Positions 8,979 to 22,234 of a DNA stretch of 64,000 bases are shown one piece after another. The stretch covers positions 49,299 to 113,298 of the forward strand of contig CBDBBV010000002.1 of the NCBI GenBank assembly GCA_965203265.1, written 5' to 3'. This DNA comes from Candidatus Poriferihabitaceae bacterium. Lineage in GTDB: Bacteria > Pseudomonadota > Gammaproteobacteria > Arenicellales > Poriferihabitantaceae. Each line of letters opens with the position of its first letter. The stretch's first letter is position 1. The position numbers and the translations under genes were made by a program. The notes below the pieces were generated by a model. It did no database searches and was not told the origin of the DNA. It worked only from the letters and a program-made list of their open reading frames with translations.

Positions 8979-9075
8979 TGCAATCTGCAACTCGCTCCGG
9001 CCTGTTGGAAAGGGGCCGGATGGTAACCCTTCGCACCGGCGAAAAGCAATGCGGCGGGGTGTTTGCGGGCGGCGG

Positions 9076-9939
9076 TTACAGGTCGATTTCCGTCCACAGC
9101 GGGAAATGATCCGAACCGACTGCGTCTTCGTCCACGCGACTGCCGCGCACCCGCGACGCCAGCGAATGGCTGACGAAGCAGTAGTCCAGCCGCGCCGGTT
9201 TGCCGTTGACATCGCTGGTAAAACCGGCAGCGGCGGCGGCGGGGTTGGCGGCGCACCACGCATCGACGAAGCCGCAGGGATTGGCAATGCGCCCGCCGTA
9301 GTCGCTCACCGGCCCGACCACGAGATCGTATTCGCGCGAATCCGGCTGGAAGTTGAAGTCGCCCAACAGGATGGCCTCTTGCGGCACCGTTTGCGAGCCG
9401 GCGCGATCGGCCCAGTCGAAGGCGGCCAGATCGCCGCACACCGGCGTGCCCTCGAAGGCGGCGTTGCGGTGGATGGCGAGTAGTTGTTCGACCTGCGGCA
9501 GGCGGGTGGCGGCGGATAGGTGGGTGAGATGGATGGAATACAGGCGCAACGGGCGGCCGTTGATCTCCACCATCGCCTCGAGGGCCGAGCGCTGGATGCT
9601 GAGGGGGCCGGTGCTGGCGTATTTGGGTAGGAGATGATGGCGGGCATATTGAATCGGTTGGCGGCTGAGCAACATGTTGCCGAACTGCCGCCGGGTGTTG
9701 TTTGCCGGTGAACTACCGGGTACATGCAAGTCCACGCCGCCGCCGTATACCCAGAAGTGATCGGGTAGGTGGTTGGCGATGGCTTGGGCTTGATCTTGGT
9801 GGTCGTTGCAGGGGGATACTCGTTCCACTTCCTGTAGGGCGATGATGTCGGCGCCGGTGATCTCGGCGACTATGCGGTCGAGGTCGCGGCGGTCGTCTTG
9901 GCCGAGTGTGTAGCGGATGTTGTAGGTTAGGAATTTCAT
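9076..9939 (-). CDS. Endonuclease/exonuclease/phosphatase (EEP) family protein
   Basis: MKFLTYNIRY..DIIALQEV..LLGDFN..GSDHFPLWTEIDL follow the order and spacing of EEP catalytic motifs. Confidence 0.8.
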   Translation of the reverse strand: MKFLTYNIRYTLGQDDRRDLDRIVAEITGADIIALQEVERVSPCNDHQDQAQAIANHLPDHFWVYGGGVDLHVPGSSPANNTRRQFGNMLLSRQPIQYARHHLLPKYASTGPLSIQRSALEAMVEINGRPLRLYSIHLTHLSAATRLPQVEQLLAIHRNAAFEGTPVCGDLAAFDWADRAGSQTVPQEAILLGDFNFQPDSREYDLVVGPVSDYGGRIANPCGFVDAWCAANPAAAAAGFTSDVNGKPARLDYCFVSHSLASRVRGSRVDEDAVGSDHFPLWTEIDL

Positions 9940-9951
9940 TTGGGTTGTTGC

Positions 9952-12483
9952 TCAGGGTTGTAGGAGTTCGCCGACCTGTTCGCGCCAAGTGTCTTCAAAC
10001 AATATTTTGAAAGTAGCCTCGGGCGGTTCGCTGATATGCCAGTCGCCGCGTTCGATTGCGGTTGTGTAGATATGCTCCAGATTGGCGAATAGTTTCTCCT
10101 TGTAGTCCGTGTCCGGGTTGATGCTCAAGTGGTTACCCTTCGTTTCCAGAATGAAAAGCCGCCCGTCTTCCCGCCGACACGCCACGAAGTCGGGACAGAC
10201 GCGATGCCGCTGCCAACCTTGTAGTGCGTACTCCCGCCGCGCGGCGACCCGGTGCCACCAATTGATGGCTGTGTGGGTGTCCAGATATAGCGCGAAATCT
10301 TTTTCCAGATTGTTGAGGCCGATTTCGTACACCGGACGGAACAAACTGCGTTGAACCGGCAGTTTGTTCCCCCCGCCACCGGCGGCGACTTCGAGGGTCT
10401 GGCCTAGTTCGTAGTTCAGCTGCTCGTCGGTCTCGAGGTGAAAGCGAATTTCATTGCGCCCGACCTTGTCGTGGAACACTTTTTCGGCGCTTTTGTTCAG
10501 CGCCTTGCCGATGCGCTTTTGCAACACATCGGACAGATAGATTCGATTGTGTAGGAGTTGTTTTTCGTTTTGTTCGGTGCGCCGATGAGCCTGTAGGAAG
10601 TCATCCGCCATGCGCGCCGCCTGCCACGGATTGGGCACCGTGTCTTTCAGTCGCCGCACGAAATAGTCCAGAGTTGCTTGTTCGCCGGTTTCCATGTCTT
10701 CGGAAACTGTGTTGCGTTGCCCGTGCAAATCGACGGTAACTTGATTCCTTTGCACGATGTCGTGGTCGTCCAGCTGAACCGCGCCGCCGCCATCGATCTC
10801 GTCCCAATCCACCGCGCCCAATATGTCGCGGTCGTAGTCGAGGAGACGCCAGCCGCGCCCGGCCTTGTGCAACACCTGCGGGAGGAAAATCTTCAGCCCC
10901 TTGTACGGGTTGCGGCGCCGCGCGATATCCACCTGCGGCGCATCGTCCACGCCGTCCCCCACGCCGCGCACGGGATCGCCGAGTCCGGTCAATCCCTCTT
11001 TTTCCAGCCCGGCTTTCACCTGCTTCACCGCCTCGCTCACATCCTGATTGCGGCAGAATATGAAGCACCGGTTCAGCGCCTCGCTCCCCTTTATCCTGCG
11101 AACATGCGGCTGGCGCATGACCCGCCCGACCATCTGCGTCATCGTGGTGGGCGCGCGGGTGGTGTCGAGCAATGCGAGTAGATAGGCGAAGGAGCAATCC
11201 CAACCTTCCTTGAGGGCGTCTTTGGTGATAATCCAGCGTACCGAGCTGTACTCGCTCAGCAAGTCTTCGCCCGCCAGTTCCCGTTGTTCCGAGGATTGAA
11301 TGCGTATCTCGCGCTCCGGCACGGCGAGATTGCGGATCAGGTATTTCTTGGCGTCCTCCGCATGGACGGTTGCCCGATCTCGTTGCGCGCTGCCGGTGTG
11401 CTGTACGCGCACCACGGCGATGGGGCGGATGTAGCGGTTTTCTTTTGCTTGCAAGTCTTTTGCCTGTTCCGTCAGCTGTTGCAGTTTCTCGTGAGTCGCG
11501 GCAAGGGTATTCTTCCAATCGGAATTGCTGAGATTGTGAATCTCGATGGGCAGTTTGATCATCTCCTCATCGCGCAGTTCGCTGCCCGATATGTTGACCA
11601 AGATGTTGCTTATGCCGATTCGCGGCGTGGCAGATAGTTCCAGCACCAAGCGGGGGTTCAGGCGGTTGACCGACTTGACGAATTCCCGATTGTTGGCATC
11701 GTTGGTGCCATATGCTTTATGCGCCTCGTCGAGAATCACCGTGGGGCGAACCATCTTCAGCACATTGAACAGACTCTGCTTCATGCAATCGCCGGATTCG
11801 TGTTGCTCCAAGTCGGGATGTTTCGTAGCAAGTTCCGCATTGGCGTTCGCATCATCCTGCTGCGGGAAAAATGAAGCGTATCCGCCGCTATCGCGAAATA
11901 TCTTGAGAAATTCCTTGTTCTTTTGCCGATTCGCGGACGGCAACATCAACATCATCACGCATAGATAACTGTCAACATCCTGCTTGGTGAACCGATCTTT
12001 TTTCTCCAATAGTTTGAACCGTCCGCCGGACATCCGCTCGAACATCTGCCGATAAGGGTGTTCGCGAGTGCGGAATGCCTTGATGGTCTGCTCGTAGATC
12101 GCCGTGGTCGGCACCATCCACAACACGAACCCCGTACCCCCCGCCACAACCCGCTCCAACGCGGCCACGCCGAGGAGGGTTTTGCCGCCGCCGGTGGGTA
12201 CTTTCAAGCAGGCGTGGGGGATGGGGGCGCCGGAGGCGTCATCTCGGTCGATGTGGTTGGGAGTTTGGGGGGTTCCGTCTTGGGTAATGCTGGGGAGAAG
12301 GTTTTTGCTTCTCAGATTTTCCCATGCGGCGCGCGGAAAATTCTCAACGCTTGGAGAAGTTTCTCTTCCCCGTTCTGCGAGAATTTCCCGTAACTCGTCT
12401 CTTTCAGCTATTGCTTCTTTGAGTGTTTCAAGCCATCGGTCGAGTTGTTCGAGGGTGGTTTGTTGATAGTCTTTGAGTTGCAT
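9952..12483 (-). CDS. res: Type III restriction enzyme Res subunit (SF2 helicase plus C-terminal PD-(D/E)xK nuclease)
   Basis: KVPTGGGKT (motif I), VILDEAH (DEAH, motif II), LELSATP (motif III), QMVGRVMR (motif VI-like). The C-terminal CPDFVACRR..LFILETKG fits the PD..(D/E)xK pattern. Confidence 0.85.
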   Translation of the reverse strand: MQLKDYQQTTLEQLDRWLETLKEAIAERDELREILAERGRETSPSVENFPRAAWENLRSKNLLPSITQDGTPQTPNHIDRDDASGAPIPHACLKVPTGGGKTLLGVAALERVVAGGTGFVLWMVPTTAIYEQTIKAFRTREHPYRQMFERMSGGRFKLLEKKDRFTKQDVDSYLCVMMLMLPSANRQKNKEFLKIFRDSGGYASFFPQQDDANANAELATKHPDLEQHESGDCMKQSLFNVLKMVRPTVILDEAHKAYGTNDANNREFVKSVNRLNPRLVLELSATPRIGISNILVNISGSELRDEEMIKLPIEIHNLSNSDWKNTLAATHEKLQQLTEQAKDLQAKENRYIRPIAVVRVQHTGSAQRDRATVHAEDAKKYLIRNLAVPEREIRIQSSEQRELAGEDLLSEYSSVRWIITKDALKEGWDCSFAYLLALLDTTRAPTTMTQMVGRVMRQPHVRRIKGSEALNRCFIFCRNQDVSEAVKQVKAGLEKEGLTGLGDPVRGVGDGVDDAPQVDIARRRNPYKGLKIFLPQVLHKAGRGWRLLDYDRDILGAVDWDEIDGGGAVQLDDHDIVQRNQVTVDLHGQRNTVSEDMETGEQATLDYFVRRLKDTVPNPWQAARMADDFLQAHRRTEQNEKQLLHNRIYLSDVLQKRIGKALNKSAEKVFHDKVGRNEIRFHLETDEQLNYELGQTLEVAAGGGGNKLPVQRSLFRPVYEIGLNNLEKDFALYLDTHTAINWWHRVAARREYALQGWQRHRVCPDFVACRREDGRLFILETKGNHLSINPDTDYKEKLFANLEHIYTTAIERGDWHISEPPEATFKILFEDTWREQVGELLQP

Positions 12484-12504
12484 TGGTTGTGTTTGTTTCG
12501 GTTG

Positions 12505-13821
12505 TCAGGAGTGGTCGGTTGATTGCTCGACTTCCAATTCGCTGTTCGCTGTTTTTATCCACCGTTCCCAGTTTGCAAACTCCTTAGCCTTAGGGCCTAG
12601 TATTACTTTCTGTAACCGAAGTTGATCTGGTGCTTCCATATAGAAACGGGGTGGAATTTTATCACTATCTACCTTTATATCTTCTGGTAGTTCATCATCG
12701 AAATGACGGATTTTTAATATCCGTAATTCTTTTTCATGCTGGTACTCATTAGCCTTGAAAAGAAATCGAATTTCATCCAGTATCTCTCTGGCCAAGAGGT
12801 GATCAGGGTTTTTGTTATCCCATTTATCCCATCTAATTTTACCTAGTATTTCTGGCAATTTGTCTAATTCGACTGATAGAGCTTCAGACTTCATATCGTC
12901 CTCGTAAGCCATTTCATAGATATATGCTTTCTGTGCTGGGGCGGATGGAGCACTGGAATTTTCACTTTTTTCTGGAAGCATGGTATCTAATTCATGTGGC
13001 CAACGTGTTGAAAATTGACTTATATCAAAGTGCAAGCAAGCGCCGTCACTCCCTTGCGATGTATGCTTACCATAGTCACCCCAGTGATCAACTCCTACGG
13101 AACTAAAACTGCCTACGAAAGCTGGAGAACGTGTACTCTCAGACAAAAAAACTTTGGTTTCTCCGTCTTTGTTCAAGAGTTCGGATTTTTCTAACCGTGC
13201 TAACAATGTTGTTCCTTCCGTTGGATCATTCATATACACGACATTATAAAAACGAAAAGATTCTTTCTGAATTAATGATCTTAATGAATTCAAATTAGTA
13301 TAGTGAGAGACTATTGGTGAGTTTTTCGATCTATCATAAAAACGTGATCTCTTAATATTGACGGTAATTTCGTAAAGTTTGACTAAGTGTGGGAGCATTT
13401 TAGTTGAATATATTTTTGATGCAATATAGCAAAGAGAATCTTCTACTTTTAGTCTTGGATTAGCAGAATTGGCTTTGCGATAACATTCTAGTGATTTCCC
13501 ATGTTCCCCATTTAGATAATAGATATATCCAAGCATTCTATGTGCATCATAACTATAAGGTATTAGAATTTTTATTTTTCGAATGTCATTTATCGCAAGA
13601 TTGTAGTTATACTCCATTACGTGCGCAATTCCCCTAAAATAGTAAATATCTGCCTTTATGCTGGATGTGATTGATAAATCGTTTTCTGCTAGTAGCGAAG
13701 CACGATCGCATACTTTAATGACTTGATCCCATTCATTATCTTTGTGGAATCTTTGCGCTTCCTCAAGAAGTTCTCTTACTTTTTGCAAATTTTCAGATTC
13801 TTCCACCATAACCCTACCCAT
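12505..13821 (-). CDS. TPR-repeat / DUF2971-domain protein (paralogue B, 438 aa)
   Basis: The N-terminal ~150 aa are helical TPR-like repeats (..ADIYYFRGIAHVMEYNYNLAINDIRK..AHRMLGYIYYLNGEHGKSLECYRKA..). These are followed by VSHYTNLNSLRSLIQKESFRFYNVVYMNDPTEG, AFVGSFSS, GACLHFD, IYEMAYED and YQHEKELRILK, which I recognise as the DUF2971 (PF11185) motif pattern. AT-rich. The start overlaps the mod-remnant ORF by 8 nt. Confidence 0.75.
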   Translation of the reverse strand: MGRVMVEESENLQKVRELLEEAQRFHKDNEWDQVIKVCDRASLLAENDLSITSSIKADIYYFRGIAHVMEYNYNLAINDIRKIKILIPYSYDAHRMLGYIYYLNGEHGKSLECYRKANSANPRLKVEDSLCYIASKIYSTKMLPHLVKLYEITVNIKRSRFYDRSKNSPIVSHYTNLNSLRSLIQKESFRFYNVVYMNDPTEGTTLLARLEKSELLNKDGETKVFLSESTRSPAFVGSFSSVGVDHWGDYGKHTSQGSDGACLHFDISQFSTRWPHELDTMLPEKSENSSAPSAPAQKAYIYEMAYEDDMKSEALSVELDKLPEILGKIRWDKWDNKNPDHLLAREILDEIRFLFKANEYQHEKELRILKIRHFDDELPEDIKVDSDKIPPRFYMEAPDQLRLQKVILGPKAKEFANWERWIKTANSELEVEQSTDHS

Positions 13822-14107
13822 TCACACAATAAGGCAACTGACAAAACACAACCCCCATCCCCGACAACTTTTTCTGCCCCATGAATTTATGCACAGCGAA
13901 AACAACCGCCGTCTTCCCCTTCCTCCCCGCCTGTTTGGCGATGCGTTCGGCGCGGTCGCCATCCACCGGTTTCTTGTCATCAATCCACGCCTTCATCCGT
14001 GCACCGTTCGCGTCCACCCGCAAAGTCCGCGAGGGGGCAGTCAGATGGTGCACAGCAACAATCTGCTTCCCCTTGGGTTTCAATGTCGGCATCGGCTTCT
14101 GCTTCAT
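13814..14107 (-). pseudogene. Internally deleted remnant of a Type III mod gene
   Basis: The 97-aa ORF is MKQKPMPTLKPKGKQIVAVHHLTAPSRTLRVDA-NGAR-MKAWIDDKKPVDG-DRAERIAKQAGRKGKTAVVFAVHKFMGQKKLSGMGVVFCQLPYCVNG. It aligns to the N terminus (MPTLEFKGKQIVYAHHLTVPSRALKVDA), the QMQVWLKDKNPVDG stretch and the C terminus (VDGDRAERISKQARSKKKTAVVFATHKFMGQKELSGMGVVFSQLPYCVNG) of the full Mod at 16059..17789. It lacks the DPPY and FAGSGTT catalytic motifs. Confidence 0.75.
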
Positions 14108-14378
14108 TCAGTCTGTTACAACCACACCACGCTTCCCCGGAAAACCCCAACGCTCCACAAGCACACACGCCGCAGTTCCCGCCAAGCGGCCTTTATACTG
14201 CACTAATCGAGTGCGGCGCAAGGGCAGGGGGATGATCGGGCATTCGAGGCGGGCGCGGGTGGGCTGATTTGCCCCGGCTTGGATGGCGTTAAGTGGGGCA
14301 TTTTGTTTTTTCAGGGTGTTCCATGTAGCGATTGGCCGTTTTCTCGCCGTTCATCTGGGTTTGTTTGGGTGTAGCCAG

Positions 14379-14429
14379 CTAGCGGTTGGGTTGTTCCAGG
14401 GTGGTTTGTTGATAGTCTTTGAGTTGCAT
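14379..14429 (-). pseudogene. 5' stump of a second res gene (16 codons then stop)
   Basis: The minus strand reads ATGCAACTCAAAGACTATCAACAAACCACCCTGGAACAA.. = MQLKDYQQTTLEQPNR*. The first ~36 nt are identical to the start of res at 12483 apart from one synonymous change (CTG for CTC). Weaker similarity continues for about 30-60 nt further. The upstream spacer to the preceding TPR-DUF2971 stop is also homologous in both copies. Confidence 0.7.
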
Positions 14430-14446
14430 TGTGTGCGTCTCGGTTG

Positions 14447-16066
14447 TTAGGAGTAGTCGCTGGTGTATGGAATTTTTGATTGTTTGACTTTCAAGTCGCT
14501 GTTCTCCGTTTTTATCCACTCCTTCCAGCCTGCAAATGCCTTGACCTGAGGGCCTAGTATCACTTTCTTTAATTGCAGTTGATCTGATACTTCCATATAA
14601 AAACGTGGTGGAAATCTATCAATATCCACTTTGACATCTTCTGGTAGTTCATCGTTAAAATTTTGAATCTTCACTATCCGTAATTCTTCTTCTTCCCGAT
14701 AATGATCTTCCTTGAACAAAAATCTGATTTCATCCAGCATGCTTCTGGCTAATTTCTTCTCATCCAGTTCTCCATTTCTAATAATGTTGTCTAGTTTTTC
14801 CGTCAATATCATCAGTATATCCTTCAACTTTCCTCGTTTGAAATTCTCAATCCCGCTCTTGTAAACGATTTCGTATATGCAATCTCCTTGTAATTTTTGA
14901 AATTCAATGTTGCTTTGTTGGTGTCCTTTTAAAGAAGTTTCATCCAATTTCATTGCATCTAATTCCATTGGAGGGTCCCCCGAAAAATTGCGTATGCTAA
15001 AGCAAAGGCACGCGCCGTTCGCTTCCTGTCCCTCATGTCTTCCGTGAGTGCGCCAGAGAAAAAGTTTTTCATCGTCAAGTGGATTGCCTGGTTTTATCTG
15101 TACAAAGCTGCCCACATAAGCTGGGGAACGTGCGCCTTTAGACAAAAAATCTTTTGTTTCCCCATTATTGCCTGATAACCCGTTTTCTATGAACCAGTCC
15201 AGCAGTGTTTTCCCTTCCTCTGGGTCGTTCATATAAGCCGCATTATAAAGACGGAATGGTTCCCTCGGGTTTTTCGGCACCAATTTTTTTACCGAAGATA
15301 AATTAGTATAGTGTGCTATGAATTTCGATTTTTTTGACGATTTACGAATAAGTTCTTTCTTGATATCTAGAACTGACGAGGCAAGTGAATACAAATCTGA
15401 GAACATATCTGCCGAATCAAGTTTAGATGCTATATAACAACCTATATCTCTTGATTTTAATTCTTGATCAATATCATTAGCGTTACGGTAATGCGTTAGT
15501 GCTTCTTTATCATTTTCACCTTTTATCAATAAAAGTAATCCAAAATCGCAAAGTATTTCTGTGTTTTCGGGTTCTAGTTTTAGCGCTTCTTTAAGATTTT
15601 CTCTTGCAGGATTGTGAAATTTGTCTGTGCGATCAGAGTCCCTTTTATTATTATATACCAATACGATTCTAAGGTATGCCAATCCTAGTCTATGATAGAT
15701 TTTCTTATCACCAGCAGAAAGGTTCTTGAATTTAGTGAAATTTTCTTCTGCGCATTCATCCTTTCCATTACAGGCATGTTCGATTCCTAGGAAGAGATAT
15801 AAATCGGCACGTTCGGGCTGAAGCTCTATCGCATCTTTTAGATTTTTTGCTGCAGTCTCATGATCTCCCTTATAGGCGTATGCGAATCCTCGAAGTTCGT
15901 GAAATAGTACCTTTATTTCTGGCCGTACTGATGGGTTTTCCTTCGCTTTTTGCAAATAATGGGTGCATTTCTTAATGAGTTTGCCACATTTTTTTTCACG
16001 GTAAAGGTTAAGAAGATATTGTATCTCTTCCGAATTTTTGTAATTTTCCACCATAACCCTACCCAT
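14447..16066 (-). CDS. TPR-repeat / DUF2971-domain protein (paralogue A, 539 aa)
   Basis: It has the same MGRVMVE start as paralogue B and a longer TPR array (..FHELRGFAYAYKGDHETAAKNLKDAIELQPERADLYLFLGIEHACNGK..YHRLGLAYLRIV..ALKLEPENTEILCDFGLLLL..). The DUF2971 pattern follows: IAHYTNLSSVKKLVPKNPREPFRLYNAAYMNDPEEG, AYVGSFVQ, GACLCFS, IYEIVYKS, HYREEEELRIVK. The start overlaps the mod stop by 8 nt. Confidence 0.75.
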   Translation of the reverse strand: MGRVMVENYKNSEEIQYLLNLYREKKCGKLIKKCTHYLQKAKENPSVRPEIKVLFHELRGFAYAYKGDHETAAKNLKDAIELQPERADLYLFLGIEHACNGKDECAEENFTKFKNLSAGDKKIYHRLGLAYLRIVLVYNNKRDSDRTDKFHNPARENLKEALKLEPENTEILCDFGLLLLIKGENDKEALTHYRNANDIDQELKSRDIGCYIASKLDSADMFSDLYSLASSVLDIKKELIRKSSKKSKFIAHYTNLSSVKKLVPKNPREPFRLYNAAYMNDPEEGKTLLDWFIENGLSGNNGETKDFLSKGARSPAYVGSFVQIKPGNPLDDEKLFLWRTHGRHEGQEANGACLCFSIRNFSGDPPMELDAMKLDETSLKGHQQSNIEFQKLQGDCIYEIVYKSGIENFKRGKLKDILMILTEKLDNIIRNGELDEKKLARSMLDEIRFLFKEDHYREEEELRIVKIQNFNDELPEDVKVDIDRFPPRFYMEVSDQLQLKKVILGPQVKAFAGWKEWIKTENSDLKVKQSKIPYTSDYS

Positions 16067-17789
16067 TCACACAATAAGGCAACTGACTAAACACAACCCC
16101 CATCCCCGACAACTCTTTCTGCCCCATGAATTTATGCGTAGCGAAAACAACCGCCGTTTTCTTCTTACTCCGTGCCTGCTTGGAGATGCGTTCGGCGCGG
16201 TCGCCGTCCACGGCGGATTTGTTGCTGCGCAGGAATTCGAGGGTCGGTTCATAGACCAGATAATACAGGCGATCTTCGGTTTCGTGGAAGAACCCGTCCT
16301 GACTCTTTGTCTTGCGGATTTTGTTCGGCGATTGGCCGGTTGCCGTGTAGATGAGATGGTGGGCGAGGGTGTCCCAGTCCGGTAGGTTTTCGCCGCTCAG
16401 CATTTTCTCGATGCTGATTTCCTTGCCCAAACCGCAATAGGCGAAACTGCCGCCCAACCCGTTTTGCAATTTTTCGTCTCTGGCTTTCGGCACGCCCCGA
16501 ATTACTCGGCGGACGCGCTCGGCGGTGATTTTGTCGGCGTATTTTTCGCACTCCACGAGGATGAATTTGCGGTTGCCGCCGTCTTCCTTGTTCAAGGCGA
16601 GTACGGCGTGCGCGGTTGTGCCGGAGCCGGCGAAGGAGTCGAGAATGATGCTTTCCTTGTCGGTAACTGCTTCAAAGATGCGTTGCAGAATTCGTTCGTC
16701 CTTCGGGTAATCGAATGCAAATTCACCAAGAATGCTTTTCAACCTTTTATGAGCAGATCGGCGATCTTGATAAATAACGCTATTCAAAACTTGTGAATCC
16801 GTTTTGTGAAGATAGCGCTTCAAATTTGGAACGCTACTTTCATCTTTTCCAAAATAAACACGCCCATCTTGTATGGCGGCAAGCATTTTCTCCTCCGTGG
16901 AGAATACCCATCCTCTGGCTGGCTTTTTAACAGCTTTTTTCGTGTCAGGATGCAACACCTGATATGTTGGCCCTCCGCCACCCGGCCACGATATATCACC
17001 CGGAAAAAATATTCCCTTCTCATCGACCATATCGTAATGTCTATGTTGCCAAGCAGGATCGTTCTTGTTCAGAGACGAAAACCACTTTTGAAGTTTTTCG
17101 GATATTGATTTGTAATCAGTTCCGCATTCAGTTTCCAGTTTCTTTACCTTTTCGTATATTTTGTCTAACCCTCTTTTCAATACGCGCCATCTTTTCTTGT
17201 TCACTTTAAGATCATCAAAATTCTTGGCATACACAAGAATGTAATCTTGCGCAATGGAAATAAATCTTGAATCATTTTTTCCAGTTCCTTCCCACACAAA
17301 AGCGCCAACAAAATTATCCTCCCCAAAAATCTCATCCATAACCATCCGCAACCGATGCTGCTCATTATCATCAATCGAAACGAAAATCACCCCATCCTCG
17401 GCCAGCAACTCTCGCAACAACTGCAACCTCGGCCAAATCATACACAGCCATTTATCATGCCGCTCCAAATCCTCGCCATCCACCGGATTCTTATCCTTGA
17501 GCCACACCTGCATCTGATCACTGTTCACATTGTCGTTGTACACCCAACCCTCGTTGCCGGTGTTGTAGGGCGGATCGATATAAATGCAATTCACCCGCCC
17601 ACCATAACGCGGCAACAACGCCTTGAGCGCATGCAGATTGTCGCCATGAATGATCAAATTCCCATCATCAGACGGCTTCGCACCCTTCGGCGGTAGCGAC
17701 TTCTTCGCATCCACCTTCAATGCCCGCGAAGGCACAGTCAAATGGTGCGCATAAACAATCTGCTTCCCCTTGAATTCCAGCGTCGGCAT
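16059..17789 (-). CDS. mod: Type III R-M DNA methyltransferase Mod (N6-adenine/N4-cytosine beta-class)
   Basis: NCIYIDPPYNTGNEGW (motif IV, DPPY) lies upstream of ILDSFAGSGTTAHAV (motif I, FxGxG). This order is typical of beta-class/Type III Mod, with a central variable region. 576 aa. Confidence 0.9.
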   Translation of the reverse strand: MPTLEFKGKQIVYAHHLTVPSRALKVDAKKSLPPKGAKPSDDGNLIIHGDNLHALKALLPRYGGRVNCIYIDPPYNTGNEGWVYNDNVNSDQMQVWLKDKNPVDGEDLERHDKWLCMIWPRLQLLRELLAEDGVIFVSIDDNEQHRLRMVMDEIFGEDNFVGAFVWEGTGKNDSRFISIAQDYILVYAKNFDDLKVNKKRWRVLKRGLDKIYEKVKKLETECGTDYKSISEKLQKWFSSLNKNDPAWQHRHYDMVDEKGIFFPGDISWPGGGGPTYQVLHPDTKKAVKKPARGWVFSTEEKMLAAIQDGRVYFGKDESSVPNLKRYLHKTDSQVLNSVIYQDRRSAHKRLKSILGEFAFDYPKDERILQRIFEAVTDKESIILDSFAGSGTTAHAVLALNKEDGGNRKFILVECEKYADKITAERVRRVIRGVPKARDEKLQNGLGGSFAYCGLGKEISIEKMLSGENLPDWDTLAHHLIYTATGQSPNKIRKTKSQDGFFHETEDRLYYLVYEPTLEFLRSNKSAVDGDRAERISKQARSKKKTAVVFATHKFMGQKELSGMGVVFSQLPYCVNG

Positions 17790-17886
17790 CGGCGTTCTAA
17801 CCCGTTCAGTCCTCTACAACCACCTCAAAATCACCCGAAAACCCCAGCACGCCATGAAATGCGCCGGGATTTCTACCATGGCGGGG

Positions 17887-17897
17887 TTATACTGCAC
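17887..17897 (-). promoter_or_regulatory. Conserved GTGCAGTATAA box about 100 nt upstream of mod; candidate -10 region
   Basis: The same box recurs at 14192-14203, at the same distance upstream of the mod remnant, within otherwise diverged homologous leader sequence. The promoter function is inferred only. Confidence 0.25.
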
Positions 17898-17968
17898 TGG
17901 ATGGGGGTTGTGCAAGGGTGGGAGGGGATTTTGGTGGGGGTTGGGGTATTTGGGTTGCATTGTGATTG

Positions 17969-18646
17969 TTATTTCAGATAATCCGCACAAAACTTTTGCA
18001 CGAAAAGTAGCATTTGCTTAACTTGACCGGCGTCGTACTCGTCAAATCTTCCATGCATCGCCTTGTTCCGAAGATCCGCCCAAGATGTGATTTGTTTTTG
18101 TACCAAAGCGTTGTAAATTTCGTTTCTAGCAAGTTCTATATTTAGCGGATTAATTGTAAATGGCTTCCCATTTGAATGCTGATCATCTATCCCTTTTGCG
18201 GAAGCAATTTTTCGCAGGGAGTTTTCTAATACGGCTCCGAGCAATATTGCCGCCGCATCTTTATTGTCGTCAAGAATTTGCTCAGCCATTTCAAGGAAGT
18301 CGGCAAAGATTTCCGCTCGAATTTTGTTGCGAAAATTGATGAGCATGCCGGATTCGATGTTGCTCTTTACTGCTTTAAAAATTCCAATCATACCTGCAAA
18401 ATGTTCGTGGCGATAACGATCAATGTTATCGAAATTAGGAATATCTATAACAGATTTAAACTGCCCAAAGAGAAAGCTGTTTAGACCATACAAAACCTCA
18501 ATCAATTGCCCACCACGTGCAACAATAGAACGAATTTCCTGAATTTTCTCCTGCCCGAGGTAATCACTGGCAACGGAAGCATCCGCTATAAGTTCTTCAC
18601 CTATAGCAATAATCTCTTCGAGTTCTTTTGTTATCTGTTCATTCAT
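17969..18646 (-). CDS. Hypothetical protein with C-terminal HEPN-like (DUF4145-like) motif
   Basis: 225 aa and AT-rich. The C-terminal AAILLGAVLENSLRKIA....WADLRNKAMHG contains an R-x4-H (RNKAMH) motif in a helical context, as in HEPN/DUF4145 proteins. The assignment is from motif memory only. Confidence 0.55.
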   Translation of the reverse strand: MNEQITKELEEIIAIGEELIADASVASDYLGQEKIQEIRSIVARGGQLIEVLYGLNSFLFGQFKSVIDIPNFDNIDRYRHEHFAGMIGIFKAVKSNIESGMLINFRNKIRAEIFADFLEMAEQILDDNKDAAAILLGAVLENSLRKIASAKGIDDQHSNGKPFTINPLNIELARNEIYNALVQKQITSWADLRNKAMHGRFDEYDAGQVKQMLLFVQKFCADYLK

Positions 18647-18655
18647 AACTTATCC

Positions 18656-19636
18656 TCACTTGGTGATTTTCGGGCCGGCGTACACGATGTAAACCGGTTC
18701 TCCTGATTGAACCGGCCACGAGAAGTGTAAACGAAGATTGTGGCGCCGAATTTTTCCGTGCCATGTGCAAAAAAGGCGCTTTTCGGGATCGTCGGGGTGG
18801 GGGAAAGTCAATTTGTCTTTGAAATTATGCTGTTCCGTATCCGACGAGTCCGAAAACAACGAAGTGTCGCCGTGGAAATATTGTTGGTACATCTCATCTG
18901 CTTCGGCGGGGCGCCCTCCACTTTTGTCATGTAAACGCGCGTATTTGTCTAGGATACCAAGCAATTCAATGAAACGATTCGCTGTACTTTTTTCAAACGG
19001 CACCTTGTGATCATCAAGCGGAGTAAAACAATTCTCAGCGAATGTCAGCCTCTCGAATTGGCTTGTCGCGCGGATGCGCAGCTTGCTCCATGACTTGATC
19101 GGCGTTACTTTTTGGAGTCTTGTTGCCAGAGTGCTTGCGTCCCACCAATTTTCTACGGCTACTTGCTGGTCGTCCAATTCCGCGTCTTCTCGCCGCCAGA
19201 TCACATCCACTGGTGAGTAATTCCAATCTGACGGTTTGATGCTGACTAGTCCACATTCTTGCGAATTCATGCAACGATACGCGGCTTCACCGACTGCAGT
19301 ACCCGTAACAAATTCATTATTACGGCACTCTAGCCAATCGTTATTCGCATCATGAAGTGGTTGGTTATCCCAGAAAGGCCCAGAACGATCCAGCCATCTC
19401 ATTACGGCGCGTTGCTTGTCCAATATGCGGATTTTTCCAATTGCTTTTCGCATTCCCATCTTTGGTATTGGGCTTCTTTCCATGAATTCACGATTACAAT
19501 GCACTTCATGACCAAATTGGCGTGCAGTGTCGCAAATTGACATCAAGCGCTCCAGCGCTTCGTGAAATAAAGAAAGATCGTTGAATTGTTTGTGAATCGA
19601 TAAATCATTGGCCAATATATCCATAATCAACTCCAA
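18656..19636 (-). CDS. Hypothetical protein, no recognisable domain (326 aa)
   Basis: Long ORF in an AT-rich region where stops are frequent. Its start overlaps the upstream ATPase gene by 10 nt, and it ends 9 nt before the HEPN-like gene. The C terminus is ..RLFCTWHGKIRRHNLRLHFSWPVQSGEPVYIVYAGPKITK. Confidence 0.6.
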   Translation of the reverse strand: MELIMDILANDLSIHKQFNDLSLFHEALERLMSICDTARQFGHEVHCNREFMERSPIPKMGMRKAIGKIRILDKQRAVMRWLDRSGPFWDNQPLHDANNDWLECRNNEFVTGTAVGEAAYRCMNSQECGLVSIKPSDWNYSPVDVIWRREDAELDDQQVAVENWWDASTLATRLQKVTPIKSWSKLRIRATSQFERLTFAENCFTPLDDHKVPFEKSTANRFIELLGILDKYARLHDKSGGRPAEADEMYQQYFHGDTSLFSDSSDTEQHNFKDKLTFPHPDDPEKRLFCTWHGKIRRHNLRLHFSWPVQSGEPVYIVYAGPKITK

Positions 19637-20769
19637 CCGGCGAAATAGTTCATGTCCTTATCGAACTGATCGAAGAATCCATCCGGCCAATCGTCGAGTC
19701 TGCCTTCGTCGTTCAGAACGATGCTCTGCACTTGCGGGTCGCCGTCTGGGTGGTTGCTACGCGGGCGGAAGAAATACAATGCAACATCTTCGGGGGACAA
19801 CACCTTGCCTTTGACGGCACGCCGGATTCCGTTCAGTATGTGGTCGCTGTGTGTTTCGAGAATGACCTGCACGCCCGCCGCCGCGACTTCGGCTAGAAAT
19901 GCACCCATCTTCGCTTGCCCGGCGGGATGGAGATGTACTTCGGGGTTTTCGATCAGTAGCAGGTCGTCTTTGCTTGCGGATAGGGCGGCTACTATGATGG
20001 GGAGAATCTGTGTTAGCCCGAATCCGGCGTGAACGGGGCGGTGGAGTTTCGTGTCACCGGATGTGCAAAGCCCCAGTGTTGCCGTATTCGTGCGGGCTAT
20101 CGGTTCAATTTGTAGCGCAAAACCCGGGAAAAACCGTGCCATCCGCGCTTTAACCTGATTCAATCGGGTGTCCACCACACCCTTTAATCTCAACCCATCC
20201 AGAACGGGGATAGTGCTACCGGAATAGAGCACACTGACCGCGTATTTTCCATCTGAGCCGACTGTGGGCGTGCGTTGCAAATCTTCAAGTACGTAGTACT
20301 CCCTCGGCCCCCGCCTCTCGGCGGTCAGATACGTGAGCCCTCGCAGACGTTGCGCAAATTCACTATCTCCGTGCGGTAGTGGCAGTAGGTAGCGCAGTTG
20401 AGTTGGATCGGTTTGTTCGGCATCATCGATGCTGACAGATACTACTTTTAGGCCCATGTCTTCCGATTCGCCTTCGAATTTCCATTGAAACCAAGTGGAA
20501 TCTCTGTACTGTAGAGCAATCTCGCAGGATTTTCGGCCATAAGTTCGGTCGATTACATCGAGTGTAGAGCCGAAGCGGACGCCCTTCCCGTTGAGCATTA
20601 GTCTTGACGACCACTCATGCTCGCGCATTGTCTGATGAAGAAGAACGAGAGCCTGTAGTATCGTAGATTTCCCAGATGCATTGGTGCCGGACAACAAAGT
20701 CAGCGGGCGCAGCGGGAGTTTCAATTTTTCAAAACACTTGAAATACTGCAGATCAATTTGTGTCAGCAT
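19627..20769 (-). CDS. ABC/OLD-type AAA ATPase with DUF3696-like C terminus
   Basis: LLSGTNASGKST (Walker A), DDLLLIENPEVHLHP (Walker B/D-loop), ILETHSDH (H-loop). The C-terminal LDDWPDGFFDQ is as I recall for DUF3696. It overlaps the DUF262 gene by 17 nt. Confidence 0.8.
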   Translation of the reverse strand: MLTQIDLQYFKCFEKLKLPLRPLTLLSGTNASGKSTILQALVLLHQTMREHEWSSRLMLNGKGVRFGSTLDVIDRTYGRKSCEIALQYRDSTWFQWKFEGESEDMGLKVVSVSIDDAEQTDPTQLRYLLPLPHGDSEFAQRLRGLTYLTAERRGPREYYVLEDLQRTPTVGSDGKYAVSVLYSGSTIPVLDGLRLKGVVDTRLNQVKARMARFFPGFALQIEPIARTNTATLGLCTSGDTKLHRPVHAGFGLTQILPIIVAALSASKDDLLLIENPEVHLHPAGQAKMGAFLAEVAAAGVQVILETHSDHILNGIRRAVKGKVLSPEDVALYFFRPRSNHPDGDPQVQSIVLNDEGRLDDWPDGFFDQFDKDMNYFAGWS

Positions 20770-21874
20770 CGATAACCTCCTTGAAAATTTTCCGTGTCAT
20801 TTGGAAGCGAGATTTTACCTGTTTGAGATCATTTGATCCATATGTGATTGCAAAGATGAAATCTTCTTCGTCTAAAAGATCGTAAACAGCTTTGTAAATG
20901 GATTCAGCGTGCTTGTCTATCTGATCTTTCGTATATCGCGACAATCCAGTGGACATTACATCCCATAAGGAAGCATTGAGAACACTACGCCGTGCGTGTT
21001 CTGGTTTTCTCTTTCTGAAAGAATTCTTTCCAAACAACATGTAATTGTTGGAAAGTCCCCGGCGAAATTCAGCAGATAACTTAGACAAGTCGGAATCCTC
21101 CATGTTGTTCATTTTACGCAGGCATTTGGCAAGGAAATCGTCCATATCTCCATGATATTCAGCAACACCTAGAAGTTGAAATGCGCAAAATCGATTGACG
21201 AATTCCCTGTCCCGCATTGTTTTCGAACTCAAGCCGCTATCGGTTGCTTTCTGAAAAATATCGGTCTGTGATTCCTCTTTCAAGAAGAGGGTCGCCTCCC
21301 CCATGAAAATACTGTTGCGCATCTGCTGTCTCGTGAGCGGCACGCCACTGTTCACCCTCTCGAAAATATCCAAGCGGGCGCGTTCCGGTGCTTTTGAATC
21401 GATGATATAGAAAATCAGGTTGCAGTCCTCAATGCGGTTCTGAAGTTTTGGGGGCAACTCGGAAAATTTTTTGTTATGAATCTCGCTAACGGGTTTAAGT
21501 TTGAGTTTCAATTCATCTTTCAAGAATCGGTAAAATGTGATCATGCGTTGCAAGCCGTCCACGATTACCATCTTCCCTTCATCATTTTCCGCCATGTAAA
21601 TTACCGGTAGAGGAATACGCATTATCACGGATTCAATCAGCTTGCTTTGCTTGTTTTCCGGCCAGACGAAATCGCGCTGAAAATCCGGGTCCATGATGTA
21701 AGTACCCTGATCGATTCGCTTGATTGCTCCTTCAATCGTTCGCGTTTCGTATCGGATGAGAAACTCGTCGATGGGATACTCATCAAATGACGTGCTCTCT
21801 TCATCAAGTCCTTCCGGTTCCTCCAAAACTCTGTCATACACTTCCGAAGTTTCTTGTGTCATGGCATGGTTCAT
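20753..21874 (-). CDS. DUF262 (ParB/Srx-like, DGQHR-type) domain protein
   Basis: DPDFQRDFVW and MVIVDGLQRMITF are the DUF262/ParB-like hallmark motifs. No DUF1524/HNH C-terminal domain is evident. A GAGGA Shine-Dalgarno lies 9 nt upstream of the ATG at 21874. Confidence 0.8.
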   Translation of the reverse strand: MNHAMTQETSEVYDRVLEEPEGLDEESTSFDEYPIDEFLIRYETRTIEGAIKRIDQGTYIMDPDFQRDFVWPENKQSKLIESVIMRIPLPVIYMAENDEGKMVIVDGLQRMITFYRFLKDELKLKLKPVSEIHNKKFSELPPKLQNRIEDCNLIFYIIDSKAPERARLDIFERVNSGVPLTRQQMRNSIFMGEATLFLKEESQTDIFQKATDSGLSSKTMRDREFVNRFCAFQLLGVAEYHGDMDDFLAKCLRKMNNMEDSDLSKLSAEFRRGLSNNYMLFGKNSFRKRKPEHARRSVLNASLWDVMSTGLSRYTKDQIDKHAESIYKAVYDLLDEEDFIFAITYGSNDLKQVKSRFQMTRKIFKEVIDADTN

Positions 21875-21926
21875 TTTTCTCGATCCTCAAATGGCGTTGG
21901 GGAATTCGGCATCCTTGTCTGATGGG

Positions 21927-22157
21927 TTAGTAATCGAATTCGAATTTGTAGACACGCCAGTCACCCCTTTCAGGGCCAGCGCCTCCTGACCCGGATTGGC
22001 AACCATAGTGTTTTGCATAGTGATTCTCAAGCTTTTGCGCTTCCGATTTAGTATTGCGCCGCCCAAGAATTTGCCAGTTGCGAAGGGTAGGATGCTTTCC
22101 TTCCCAATAACGCCTTCTTTCCCCCGGATTGGTGGTTATTCCAACTCTGCATGGCAT
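21927..22157 (-). CDS. Small conserved-looking hypothetical protein (76 aa), possibly a minimal GIY-YIG-like fold
   Basis: MPCRVGITTNPGERRRYWEGKH..SEAQKLENHYAKHYGC..WRVYKFEFDY. The VGxTxNPxxRxxxW/H plus downstream Glu pattern is reminiscent of GIY-YIG. This assignment is weak. Confidence 0.4.
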   Translation of the reverse strand: MPCRVGITTNPGERRRYWEGKHPTLRNWQILGRRNTKSEAQKLENHYAKHYGCQSGSGGAGPERGDWRVYKFEFDY

Positions 22158-22234
22158 AATTCAGCCCTCTAAGTATGATTTCAACGAAGCGCGCATTATA
22201 TTGCCACCAAATTCATCTAGTCAACCCGAACCCC

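What the first reader, a model, noticed from the sequence alone, without database searches (positions are those of the whole stretch)
13814..14429. Tandem duplication of the mod-X-res cassette followed by reciprocal decay, leaving stumps of a second mod and a second res
Between the two TPR-DUF2971 genes lie two remnants. (a) A 16-codon res stump (14429-14379, MQLKDYQQTTLEQPNR*) has its first ~36 nt identical to the real res start at 12483 apart from one synonymous change (CTG for CTC), with homologous upstream spacer. (b) A 97-aa mod remnant (14107-13814) keeps the Mod N terminus, a short internal stretch (MKAWIDDKKPVDG vs MQVWLKDKNPVDG) and the last ~45 residues, but lacks both catalytic motifs. 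One deletion junction falls at a VDG(D/E) peptide that occurs twice in full-length Mod (NPVDGEDLERH and SAVDGDRAERI), suggesting short-repeat-mediated deletion. The leader upstream of the remnant (14108-14300) is homologous to the leader of the intact mod (17790-17900), including a shared GTGCAGTATAA box. So two complete cassettes once stood in tandem. What survives is one mod, one res and two diverged X genes. The mod remnant has kept exactly the frame and 3' end that overlaps the start of X paralogue B. This fits selection to retain translational coupling and expression of X-B, and diversifying selection on the TPR part.
Basis: seen in the sequence. Interest (0 to 1): 0.62.

Follow-up and report, generated by a model that had tools for sequence, protein, structure and literature searches.

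The report
Duplication scars inside a restriction operon
A restriction-modification operon of a sponge-symbiont bacterium holds two copies of an embedded, probably antiviral, gene, and the fragments of a second methylase and a second nuclease between them are real scars of unit duplication, a process that recurs in this operon family across several bacterial phyla.

Summary
On the minus strand the order is mod, X-A, res stump, leader, 97-codon mod remnant, X-B, res. Every claimed homology is far above chance.

Two corrections apply:
- The res remnant is about 225 nt long (14429 to about 14205), not 51 nt, and it abuts the mod leader at the GTGCAGTATAA box.
- Only 14108-14203 is mod leader.

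The tandem-unit reading is supported:
- One syntenic metagenome strain (L015) has the same architecture.
- Another (L013) has a full-length mod where the window has the remnant.
- The six X genes of these strains form one clade.

"Two complete cassettes" is not needed, because the repeat unit seems to end inside res.

Selection on the stub peptide is not supported. Stub against stub gives dN/dS of about 1.4, and other lineages carry in-frame stops. Only about 35 nt before the X start is invariant. Diversifying selection on the TPR half is not shown (omega 0.39-0.54).

The pattern is general. In one clade of Type III systems, mostly sponge-symbiont MAGs, the mod-res interval is a cargo slot. 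It recurrently carries res'-mod' junctions with different breakpoints.

X is a TPR protein fused to a diverged DUF2971 domain, which is predicted in the literature to be DarT-like. My fold test of that prediction was inconclusive.

The parts
16059..17789 (-). Intact Type III mod (576 aa).
   Evidence: Pfam N6_N4_Mtase E 1.6e-33. PADLOC MTase_III E 6e-179. The N and C ends are 93.6% and 94.6% identical to L013 mod2. The middle, 17306-16646, cannot be aligned at DNA level.
17790..17897 (-). Leader 1 of mod. It begins with the GTGCAGTATAA box at 17887-17897.
14447..16066 (-). X-A (539 aa): a TPR array fused to a diverged DUF2971-like C-terminal domain.
   Evidence: Pfam TPR hits. AF2 model with pLDDT 83.6. 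All 22 invariant residues of the family's C-domain are present. It pairs with L015 X-A' at 98/98 support.
14205..14429 (-). Res 5' remnant (res'). It is an intact-looking 16-codon ORF (14429-14379), followed by frameshifted res-derived sequence to about res codon 92. It carries a 52-nt deletion relative to L015.
14108..14203 (-). Leader 2, a copy of the mod leader. It begins with GTGCAGTATAA at 14193-14203. The res'|leader junction lies just upstream.
13814..14107 (-). Mod remnant ORF (97 codons). It consists of Mod 1-28, about 87-105 and about 528-576, the product of two in-frame internal deletions.
   Evidence: PADLOC MTase_III E 1.6e-11. The orthologous stub in L015 is frame-broken. dN/dS against the L015 stub is 1.44.
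12505..13821 (-). X-B (438 aa): paralogue of X-A with a shorter TPR part.
   Evidence: BLASTP against X-A: 41% identity, E 4e-91. Pfam TPR_2, and DUF2971 at E 0.0092, below the gathering cut-off. It pairs with L013 X2 at 100/100 support.
9952..12483 (-). Intact Type III res (843 aa).
   Evidence: Pfam ResIII. PADLOC REase_III E 1e-205.
17946..17964 (-). Possible third, almost erased, res-start remnant just after the HEPN gene stop and before leader 1.
   Evidence: the repeat finder family D7 has three copies at 89-100% identity. It matches the res start at 17 of 19 nt. The wider alignment is not significant, z 0.3-2.3. This part is weak.
17969..18646 (-). HEPN-like gene (225 aa) just upstream. 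In a Nitrospira MAG (L026) its homologue lies between mod and X, followed by a res stump.
   Evidence: Pfam HEPN_RiboL-PSP, weak..

Best explanation
**What the region is.** It is a two-unit, possibly three-unit, tandem array inside a Type III restriction-modification operon whose mod-res interval serves as a cargo slot.
- The repeat unit ran from the mod leader (GTGCAGTATAA box) through mod and the embedded gene X into the first 90 or so codons of res.
- Joining two such units gave mod, X-A, res' | leader, mod, X-B, res. The join could have arisen by unequal or illegitimate recombination, or by Campbell-type integration of a popped-out or imported unit.
- Only the last res was ever complete.

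**What happened afterwards.**
- Both X copies were kept under purifying selection.
- The redundant second mod was whittled down by two internal deletions, one of them on an 11-nt microhomology.
- The res' piece accumulated a stop codon, frameshifts and a deletion.

**Why the stubs persist.**
- Deletions that reached into X or its immediate 5' region (about 35 nt) were removed by selection.
- The stub peptides themselves are not conserved.

**Continued recombination.**
- Recombination among the repeated modules and with other strains continued afterwards.
- The signs are the mosaic leader in L013, TRD swaps in mod, and X alleles 5-10 times more diverged than their flanks.

**What X probably is.**
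- X is most likely a sensor-effector: a TPR array fused to a DUF2971 domain, which the literature predicts to be a DarT-like ADP-ribosyltransferase.
- It would act as an abortive-infection-type second line beside the restriction enzyme.
- Keeping two diverged copies would widen what is sensed.

**Shown:**
- the anatomy;
- homology of every piece;
- the shared architecture in L015;
- the full mod in L013;
- neutral evolution of the stub;
- recurrence in other lineages.

**Inferred:**
- the mechanism of joining;
- that res' was truncated from birth;
- the function of X.
For: **Segment homologies and the junction**
- Homologies.
- The junction of res' (to about codon 92) with the leader is shared by the window and L015.

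**Syntenic strains**
- L015 has the same array between the same neighbours (Menshen and HEPN upstream; EEP, TIM and SecG downstream), with flanks 91-92% identical.
- L013 has a mini mod stub, X1, a mini res', the leader, a full mod, X2 and res.

**X phylogeny**
- The six X genes form one clade at 100/100.
- X-A pairs with L015 X-A' at 98/98, and X-B with L013 X2 at 100/100.
- Both window copies keep all 22 invariant C-domain residues.
- Omega is below 1 in both halves.

**Stub evolution**
- dN/dS is 1.44 between orthologous stubs, against 0.27 between functional mods.
- Stubs in L029 and L030 carry in-frame stops.
- A core of about 35 nt upstream of all six X starts is invariant.

**Recurrence**
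- res'-mod' junctions with different breakpoints occur in L018 (twice), L021, L024, L027 and L030.
- Extra stubs occur in L016, L026, L028, L029, L033, L054, L055 and L058.
- These loci span Nitrospirota, Thermodesulfobacteriota, Binatia, Chloroflexota and Gammaproteobacteria.
- X loci outside R-M operons have no stubs.

**Cargo slot**
- In same-order genomes, the 8 systems with Res at least 60% identical have mod-res gaps of 583-3017 nt filled with varied genes.
- The 5 more distant systems have gaps of 22-37 nt.

**Nature of X**
- DUF2971 is matched by 25 of 32 family members.
- DUF2971 is predicted to be DarT/AbiGi-like (PMC12522546).
- A single-gene DUF2971 system, Aristaios, gives phage resistance (PMC11381338).
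Against: - Divergence is uneven along the unit: 87% at the mod 3' end, 75% in the leader and at the X 3' end, and dS above 1 inside X. One clean duplication followed by clock-like decay does not fit without later gene conversion or allele replacement.
- L013's mod is closer to the window's first mod (93-96%) than to the remnant, although it occupies the remnant's position. The orthology of units is therefore ambiguous, and L013 could be a secondary rearrangement.
- No strain with two fully intact units was found, and no single-unit strain of this lineage either.
- The remnant's open 97-codon frame, with two in-frame deletions and no stop, is mildly unexpected under pure neutrality (roughly 0.02-0.05). 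Some selection for translation through it cannot be excluded.
- The ART fold of X is not confirmed here. Foldseek on the C-domain gives no significant hit; DarT comes up only at E 1.2-4.5 with TM 0.42-0.47. A profile search of PDB sequences finds no ART.
- L015 is a 4x long-read contig, so some of its frameshifts may be sequencing errors.
Confidence: 0.78

Rival explanations
1. **Heterologous cassette capture.** X-B, or X-A, with its mod 3' and res 5' arms came from another strain's mod-X-res locus. It was added next to the resident cassette by homology-facilitated illegitimate recombination, or by integration of a circularised fragment. Under this reading the two X genes are alleles from different strains, not in-situ duplicates.
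For: - X is 5-10 times more diverged between strains than its flanks: dS 0.8-1.5 against 0.12-0.20.
- L015's X-B' is only about 39% identical to the window's X-B, although the flanks are 91% identical.
- X has GC3 of 0.30-0.40 against 0.70 in res.
- In other genomes, stubs separate unlike cargo genes: L018, L026 and L054.
- L029 (Dehalococcoidia) and L030 (Gammaproteobacteria) share both X types, so arrays move between phyla.
Against: - All six X genes of the three strains form one lineage-specific clade with a long stem. Any donor was therefore a close relative.
- The second unit carries the lineage-specific leader with the GTGCAGTATAA box, found only in this lineage.
- The resulting structure is the same as for in-situ duplication, so the two readings differ only in the source of the second unit.
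Confidence: 0.3
2. **Functional stubs.** The mod remnant, and perhaps the res' mini-ORF, is kept by selection. It could be a translated leader ORF that drives X-B expression by translational coupling or by avoiding polarity. Alternatively it could be a peptide (Mod C-tail or Res N-terminus) that the TPR array of X binds.
For: - The window remnant keeps the mod leader, the start codon, an open frame across two deletions, and the native stop right next to the X-B start.
- Internally deleted mini-mods that keep both ends recur in L022 (108 aa) and L059 (316 aa).
- Every R-M-embedded X is preceded by at least the last 10 or so mod codons.
Against: - dN/dS between orthologous stubs is 1.44.
- L015's stub is frame-broken.
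- The L029 and L030 stubs carry in-frame stops about 22 codons before the end.
- L013 X1 has only about 35 nt of mod left, with no start codon in the mod frame.
- X homologues outside R-M operons have no stubs at all.
Confidence: 0.15
3. **Programmed switching.** The repeated mod 3' and res 5' arms would be substrates of a dedicated recombination system that swaps or phase-varies the X allele next to mod or res, like hsdS shufflons.
For: Repeated conserved arms flank variable genes, and the arrays are recurrent.
Against: - All repeats are direct, not inverted. The inverted pairs reported by the repeat finder are short (16-31 nt) and unrelated to the duplicated modules.
- None of the island ORFs I scanned (9076-20769) has a recombinase or integrase domain.
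- The arms are 75-87% identical and decaying.
- Direct repeats can only delete or amplify.
Confidence: 0.03
4. **Chance similarity or assembly artefact.**
For: None.
Against: - E-values run from 1e-7 to 1e-80 for five collinear segments.
- The copies are 67-87% identical, so they cannot be an assembly collapse or a mis-assembled duplication.
- The same architecture appears in an independent metagenome assembly, L015.
Confidence: 0.01

Closest known systems
prr locus of E. coli: the anticodon nuclease PrrC embedded in the Type Ic R-M system EcoprrI (PMC1484252, PMC3458546)
   Same: An effector gene of the abortive-infection kind sits inside a restriction-modification operon, between its subunit genes. 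This suggests a second line of defence linked to the restriction enzyme.
   Different: - The host system here is Type III (mod-res), not Type I.
- The embedded protein is TPR plus a DUF2971-like domain, not an ABC-ATPase plus a tRNase.
- It is present in two diverged copies with duplication scars.
- No physical or regulatory link to Mod or Res has been shown.
Aristaios, a single-gene DUF2971 antiphage system of lactococcal plasmids (PMC11381338); DUF2971 predicted to be a DarT/AbiGi-like ADP-ribosyltransferase (PMC12522546)
   Same: The C-terminal domain of the X family matches Pfam DUF2971 in 25 of 32 members. The family keeps an invariant H-Y-T, conserved aromatic residues and an E-x-E-x-R motif.
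   Different: - X carries an N-terminal TPR array and is 438-539 aa, against 316 aa.
- X-A itself does not reach any Pfam threshold, and X-B scores 17.7 bits against a cut-off of 22.
- The ART fold is not confirmed by Foldseek.
- X is embedded in an R-M operon.
Type III R-M loci with several mod genes and one res (Mycoplasma bovis PG45, bioRxiv 10.64898/2026.05.01.722158), and allelic TRD diversity of mod (PMC1557822)
   Same: Parts of a Type III locus are duplicated while a single res is kept. The central part of mod is hypervariable between strains.
   Different: Here the retained duplicates are the embedded cargo genes, not mod. The extra mod is reduced to a 97-codon remnant.
Gene amplification and decay by unequal crossing-over between direct repeats (general bacterial genetics; own knowledge)
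   Same: Same-orientation repeat units, a novel junction (res'|leader), microhomology at a deletion end, and later loss of the redundant parts.
   Different: The process recurs at the same operon position in many phyla, and it always spares the cargo genes.

Membership tests
Type III restriction-modification system | Mod subunit: an N6/N4 DNA methyltransferase of the Type III kind. | tested here: met
   PF01555 at E 1.6e-33. PADLOC MTase_III at E 6e-179.
Type III restriction-modification system | Res subunit: an SF2 helicase-like ATPase of the Type III kind, encoded downstream of mod on the same strand. | tested here: met
   PF04851 ResIII at E 2.4e-11. PADLOC REase_III at E 1e-205, full length. 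Same strand as mod.
Type III restriction-modification system | mod and res adjacent, as a two-gene operon. | tested here: not met
   3.6 kb with two X genes and the remnants lie between them. More distant members of the same family have gaps of 22-37 nt.
Tandem duplication of one unit | Collinear, same-orientation copies of all parts of the unit, with a novel junction. | tested here: met
   Five collinear segments. The res'|leader junction is shared with L015.
Tandem duplication of one unit | The remnant descends from a full-length gene: a relative has the intact gene at that position. | tested here: met
   This is met for mod only: L013 has a 552-aa mod after the res'-leader junction. It is not met for res: no relative has a complete second res.
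Tandem duplication of one unit | Even divergence between the copies along the whole unit. | tested here: not met
   Identity between the copies ranges from 67% to 87% by segment. dS is 0.21 at the mod 3' end against more than 1 inside X. Later conversion or allele exchange is needed to explain this.
DUF2971 / DarT-like ADP-ribosyltransferase | Match to Pfam PF11185 above the gathering score. | tested here: inconclusive
   X-B scores 17.7 bits against a cut-off of 22, and X-A has no hit. 25 of 32 family members match at E up to 0.01, the best at 4e-8.
DUF2971 / DarT-like ADP-ribosyltransferase | ART fold with an H-Y-E type active site. | tested here: inconclusive
   - The C-domain model has pLDDT 81.
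- Foldseek finds no hit with E at or below 0.001.
- DarT (7omw, 7omy) comes up at E 1.2-4.5 with TMt 0.42-0.47.
- Other ART-type entries (Tpt1 7yw4, the PltA toxin subunit 4z9d) are among the weak hits.
- H-Y-T and E-x-E-x-R are invariant in the family.
DUF2971 / DarT-like ADP-ribosyltransferase | ADP-ribosylation activity or toxicity. | not testable with these tools
   Needs expression and an NAD+-dependent assay.
PrrC-like R-M-embedded guard effector | The gene lies inside the R-M operon. | tested here: met
   16 of the 33 family loci recovered from genome contigs have mod and/or res sequence, in some only stubs, next to X.
PrrC-like R-M-embedded guard effector | Kept latent by the R-M enzyme and activated by a phage anti-restriction factor. 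| not testable with these tools
   About half of the X homologues occur without any Type III genes nearby, so X can probably act on its own.
Shufflon or phase-variable cassette system | Inverted repeats and a site-specific recombinase. | tested here: not met
   The homologous modules are all direct repeats. The only inverted pairs found are short (16-31 nt) and unrelated to them. None of the island ORFs scanned has a recombinase domain.

The most novel reading that the evidence does not exclude
**The reading.** In one clade of Type III R-M systems, concentrated in sponge symbionts of at least five phyla, the mod-res interval is a cassette platform.
- The conserved mod 3' end and res 5' end act as recombination arms.
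- Through them, immune cargo genes are captured, amplified into arrays and exchanged between strains and phyla. The cargo seen includes TPR-DUF2971 sensor-effectors, HEPN, DUF1828 and others.
- The stubs are the visible footprints of this traffic.

**How the cargo would work.**
- The TPR-ART proteins would be guard effectors functionally tied to the restriction complex.
- They could be triggered when a phage blocks Mod or Res, possibly by reading the Mod C-tail or the Res N-terminus.
Probability: 0.25. Interest if true: 0.8.

Novelty: new variant of a known kind. Interest (0 to 1): 0.52.

Why it matters
- **What the remnants record.** They are a readable history of how a defence locus grows. 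A unit inside a restriction operon is duplicated or captured. The embedded sensor-effector genes are kept and diverge very fast. The redundant enzyme genes are eroded down to what the cargo's expression tolerates.
- **Why it is more than a one-off.** The same footprints, with different breakpoints, occur in many unrelated bacteria. This points to the mod-res interval of this Type III clade as a general hotspot for immune cargo. I found no paper describing that for Type III systems; the known precedent is Type I with PrrC.
- **What it offers experimentally.** It gives natural pairs of diverged TPR-DUF2971 paralogues for testing what such sensors recognise.
- **Practical use for annotation.** Short ORFs that look like Mod C termini or Res N termini next to cargo genes should be read as scars, not as genes.

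Tried and rejected
- **Extending the third res remnant.** I tried to extend the possible third res remnant upstream of leader 1 (17975-17898) by gapped alignment to the long stumps. The result is not significant (z 0.3-2.3). Only the 19-nt match stands.
- **Fold search with the full-length X-A model.** It returned only TPR proteins.
- **Fold search with the C-domain model alone.** It gave no significant hit.
- **Profile searches of PDB sequences.** The full-length profile hit only TPR proteins. The C-domain profile hit only a spurious helical match to PDCD10.
- **PADLOC and NCBIfam.** Neither has a model for X.
- **Rfam.** A scan of 9000-23000 found nothing credible.
- **Promoter and terminator scan.** The consensus scan found no more sites than shuffled sequence, and none at the leaders.
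- **GTGCAGTATAA in distant loci.** The box is absent there, so it is lineage-specific and not a conserved recombination site.
- **Fixed-length dN/dS on stubs of distant loci.** This was invalid where C-terminal lengths differ. I used only the qualitative result, the in-frame stops.
- **One look-up failed.** P0005 is not on record.
- **Literature searches.** I found no paper on genes embedded between Type III mod and res.
Full report
**Anatomy**

All genes of the region lie on the minus strand. The order is:

| Feature | Coordinates |
|---|---|
| HEPN-like gene | 18646-17969 |
| leader 1 | 17897-17790 |
| mod, 576 aa | 17789-16059 |
| X-A, 539 aa | 16066-14447 |
| res 5' remnant | 14429 to about 14205 |
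| leader 2 | 14203-14108 |
| 97-codon mod remnant | 14107-13814 |
| X-B, 438 aa | 13821-12505 |
| res, 843 aa | 12483-9952 |

- Mod and Res are clear Type III subunits. Mod hits Pfam N6_N4_Mtase and Res hits ResIII. PADLOC gives MTase_III at E 6e-179 and REase_III at E 1e-205.
- Upstream lies a Menshen system, with NsnB and NsnC recognised by PADLOC.
- The whole block, about 9950-22400, is a lower-GC island in a genome of about 65% GC. The X genes are the most AT-rich part, about 37% GC.

**Check of the observation**

- blastn of the two halves against each other gives five collinear, same-strand segments, 67-87% identical, with E from 3e-7 to 5e-80.
- BLASTP shows that the 97-aa ORF is Mod 1-28, then about 87-105, then 523-576. 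It therefore lacks both catalytic motif regions.
- The 16-codon res stump and its upstream spacer align with the true res start at score 114, against a shuffle maximum of 31. There is a single mismatch in the first 40 nt.
- GTGCAGTATAA occurs only at the two leaders in the 64-kb window.
- The second deletion in the remnant lies on GTGGA(T/C)GGCGA, present at both parental sites. The short-repeat idea holds at DNA level.

Two corrections follow.
- The res remnant does not stop at codon 16. The orthologous stump in L015 aligns with the L013 res 5' end over about 310 columns, score 263 against a shuffle maximum of 78. That reaches about res codon 92. The window copy is the same remnant with a 52-nt internal deletion. 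The res-derived sequence runs right up to the GTGCAGTATAA box, so only 14108-14203 is mod leader.
- In L013 X1 the overlapping ATG is absent and only the second ATG is conserved. X may therefore start 4 nt after the mod stop rather than overlap it by 8 nt.

**Relatives with the same chromosomal context**

Two metagenome contigs carry the locus between the same neighbours: Menshen upstream, and EEP, TIM and SecG downstream.

L015:
- It has the same array: mod, X-A', res stump, leader, mod stub, X-B', res.
- Its flanks are 91-92% identical to the window. The array is therefore older than the split of these strains (EEP dS 0.12, res dS 0.19).

L013:
- An unrelated 329-aa N6_N4 methyltransferase replaces HEPN.
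- Next come only about 35 nt of mod 3' end, then X1, then a 16-17-nt res-start remnant, the leader with the box, a full 552-aa mod, X2 and res.
- A complete mod therefore exists directly after the res'-leader junction, where the window has the remnant. This supports descent of the remnant from a whole gene.
- No relative has a complete second res.

**History is mosaic**

- L013's mod ends are 93.6% and 94.6% identical to the window's first mod, but only 73-88% identical to the remnant.
- L013's leader looks chimeric. Its first 20-30 nt are of the leader-2 type and the rest is of the leader-1 type. Few sites are informative.
- The central part of mod (17306-16646) cannot be aligned between strains. 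This is the usual TRD swapping of Type III mod genes.
- The six X genes of the three strains form one clade (100/100). X-A pairs with L015 X-A' (98/98) and X-B with L013 X2 (100/100). L013 X1 and L015 X-B' are unresolved.
- Positional X orthologues differ by dS 0.8-1.5 and dN 0.25-0.65. Flanking res and EEP differ by dS 0.12-0.20. X alleles are therefore either exchanged from an old pool or evolve far faster than their surroundings.

**Is the stub selected?**

- Among functional mod C termini, dN/dS is 0.27.
- Between the orthologous stubs of the window and L015, it is 1.44 (17.5 non-synonymous and 3.5 synonymous differences in 54 codons).
- L015's stub has a 17-nt frame-breaking deletion.
- The stubs in L029 and L030 have in-frame stops about 22 codons before the end.
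- L013 X1 works with about 35 nt of mod sequence and no start codon in the mod frame.
- What is invariant in all six copies is TTTGTCAGTTGCCTTATT...TAG.GT.ATG, the immediate 5' region of X.
- A simulation gives a probability of 0.21-0.44 that the window remnant stays free of stops. Multiplied by 1/9 for two in-frame deletions, this is only weak, post-hoc support for selection on an open frame.

I conclude that the stub is mainly a scar. Its extreme 3' end is constrained as X's translation-initiation region. A role of translation through the stub is possible but unproven.

**Selection on X**

- Both window copies keep all 22 invariant residues of the family's C-domain.
- Pairwise omega is 0.39-0.54 in the TPR half and 0.25-0.34 in the C-terminal half. 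dS is saturated.
- This shows weaker constraint on the TPR half, not demonstrated diversifying selection.

**The pattern is general**

A scan of one genome per species with the X family found 33 loci, mostly MAGs labelled as sponge symbionts, including Ca. Poriferihabitaceae, to which the window's family belongs.

- 16 of them have Type III mod and/or res sequence, in some only stubs, beside X.
- Extra mod 3' stubs of 20-100 codons lie before cargo genes, and extra res 5' stumps of 7-92 codons lie after them.

| Locus | Lineage | What is seen |
|---|---|---|
| L016 | Thermodesulfobacteriota | res' |
| L018 | Nitrospirales | two res'-mod junctions |
| L021 | Gammaproteobacteria | extra stubs and a res'-mod' junction |
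| L024 | Gammaproteobacteria | extra stubs and a res'-mod' junction |
| L026 | Nitrospira | mod, HEPN, res', mod' mini-stub, X, res |
| L027 | Binatia | an in-frame fusion of 7 res codons to the mod C terminus |
| L028 | window's family | mod' and res' |
| L029 | Dehalococcoidia | extra stubs |
| L030 | Gammaproteobacteria | three X copies, each with a stub |
| L033 | Nitrospirales | mod' |
| L054, L055, L058 | same-order genomes | extra stubs |

- The breakpoints differ between lineages, so these are independent events.
- X homologues outside R-M operons have no such motifs.
- In same-order genomes, the eight systems whose Res is at least 60% identical to the window's have mod-res gaps of 583-3017 nt. 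The gaps are filled with varied genes: DUF1828, TPR proteins and unknowns.
- The five more distant systems (43-48% identity) have the canonical 22-37-nt gap.
- The cargo slot is thus a derived trait of one clade.

**What X is**

- The AF2 model of X-A (pLDDT 83.6) shows an N-terminal TPR superhelix and a mixed alpha/beta C-domain.
- Pfam DUF2971 is matched by 25 of 32 family members. In the window, only X-B matches, and below the cut-off.
- DUF2971 has been predicted to be a DarT/AbiGi-like ADP-ribosyltransferase (PMC12522546). A single-gene DUF2971 system, Aristaios, protects lactococci with an abortive phenotype (PMC11381338).
- My own fold test is inconclusive. The C-domain model (pLDDT 81) has no significant PDB match. 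DarT appears only at E 1.2-4.5 with TM 0.42-0.47.
- The family keeps H-Y-T and E-x-E-x-R invariant.
- The closest functional analogy is PrrC inside EcoprrI (PMC1484252). However, about half of the X homologues stand without Type III genes, so X probably can act alone.

**Conclusion**

The refinements are as follows.
- The unit ended inside res.
- The res remnant is four times longer than stated.
- The stubs are scars bounded by what X expression tolerates, not conserved peptides.
- X alleles turn over much faster than the scaffold.
- The window is one instance of a recurrent accordion process at a cargo slot of a Type III clade.

**Limits**

- L015 is a 4x long-read contig.
- The function of X is untested.

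Noticed in passing
window 16646-17306: The central part of mod (presumably the target-recognition domain) cannot be aligned at DNA level with L013 or L015, while both ends are 92-95% identical. The strains probably methylate different sites.
   Followed up: partly
window 17946-17964: A 19-nt copy of the res start (17 of 19 nt) sits right after the HEPN stop and before leader 1. It may be a third, nearly erased res stump. That would make HEPN the cargo of a former upstream unit.
   Followed up: partly
L026 2574-3254, and L018, L021, L030, L051, L052, L055: - Other cargo recurs in the same mod-res slot.
- The HEPN homologue (57% identical) lies between mod and X in a Nitrospira MAG.
- A 259-aa DUF1828 protein sits directly upstream of res in at least six genomes.
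   Followed up: partly
L027 9620: A mini-ORF fuses the first 7 res codons in frame to the last 20 or so mod codons (MQLKTYQSMGQKELTDMGIVF...). This is a very tight res'-mod' junction after an X gene in a Binatia MAG.
   Followed up: no
window 12505-16066, and X genes of 30 other loci: X genes are consistently lower in GC than their neighbours. In the window, GC3 is 0.31-0.35 against 0.69 in res and 0.79 in the adjacent EEP gene. In nearly all other loci X is 2-17 points of GC below the rest of the locus.
   Followed up: partly
L029 and L030: A Dehalococcoidia MAG and a Gammaproteobacteria MAG share both X types of a multi-X array, with sister pairs at 98-99 SH-aLRT. The whole array has apparently moved between phyla.
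   Followed up: no
L013 8955-9944: In L013 an unrelated 329-aa N6_N4 methyltransferase (DPPY type) takes the place of the HEPN gene, directly upstream of X1.
   Followed up: no
L022 7638-7964; L059 2280-3230: Internally deleted mini-mods that keep both the N- and C-terminal ends recur elsewhere. One is 108 aa (Mod 1-66 plus 476-576) and one is 316 aa (Mod 1-164 plus 452-572). They are the same kind of remnant as the window's 97-aa ORF.
   Followed up: no
L053 4444-5913; L057 1058-2224 (same genus as the window): TPR proteins that match only the repeat part of X follow mod in two loci of a same-genus genome. They may be TPR sensors with a different effector domain.
   Followed up: no
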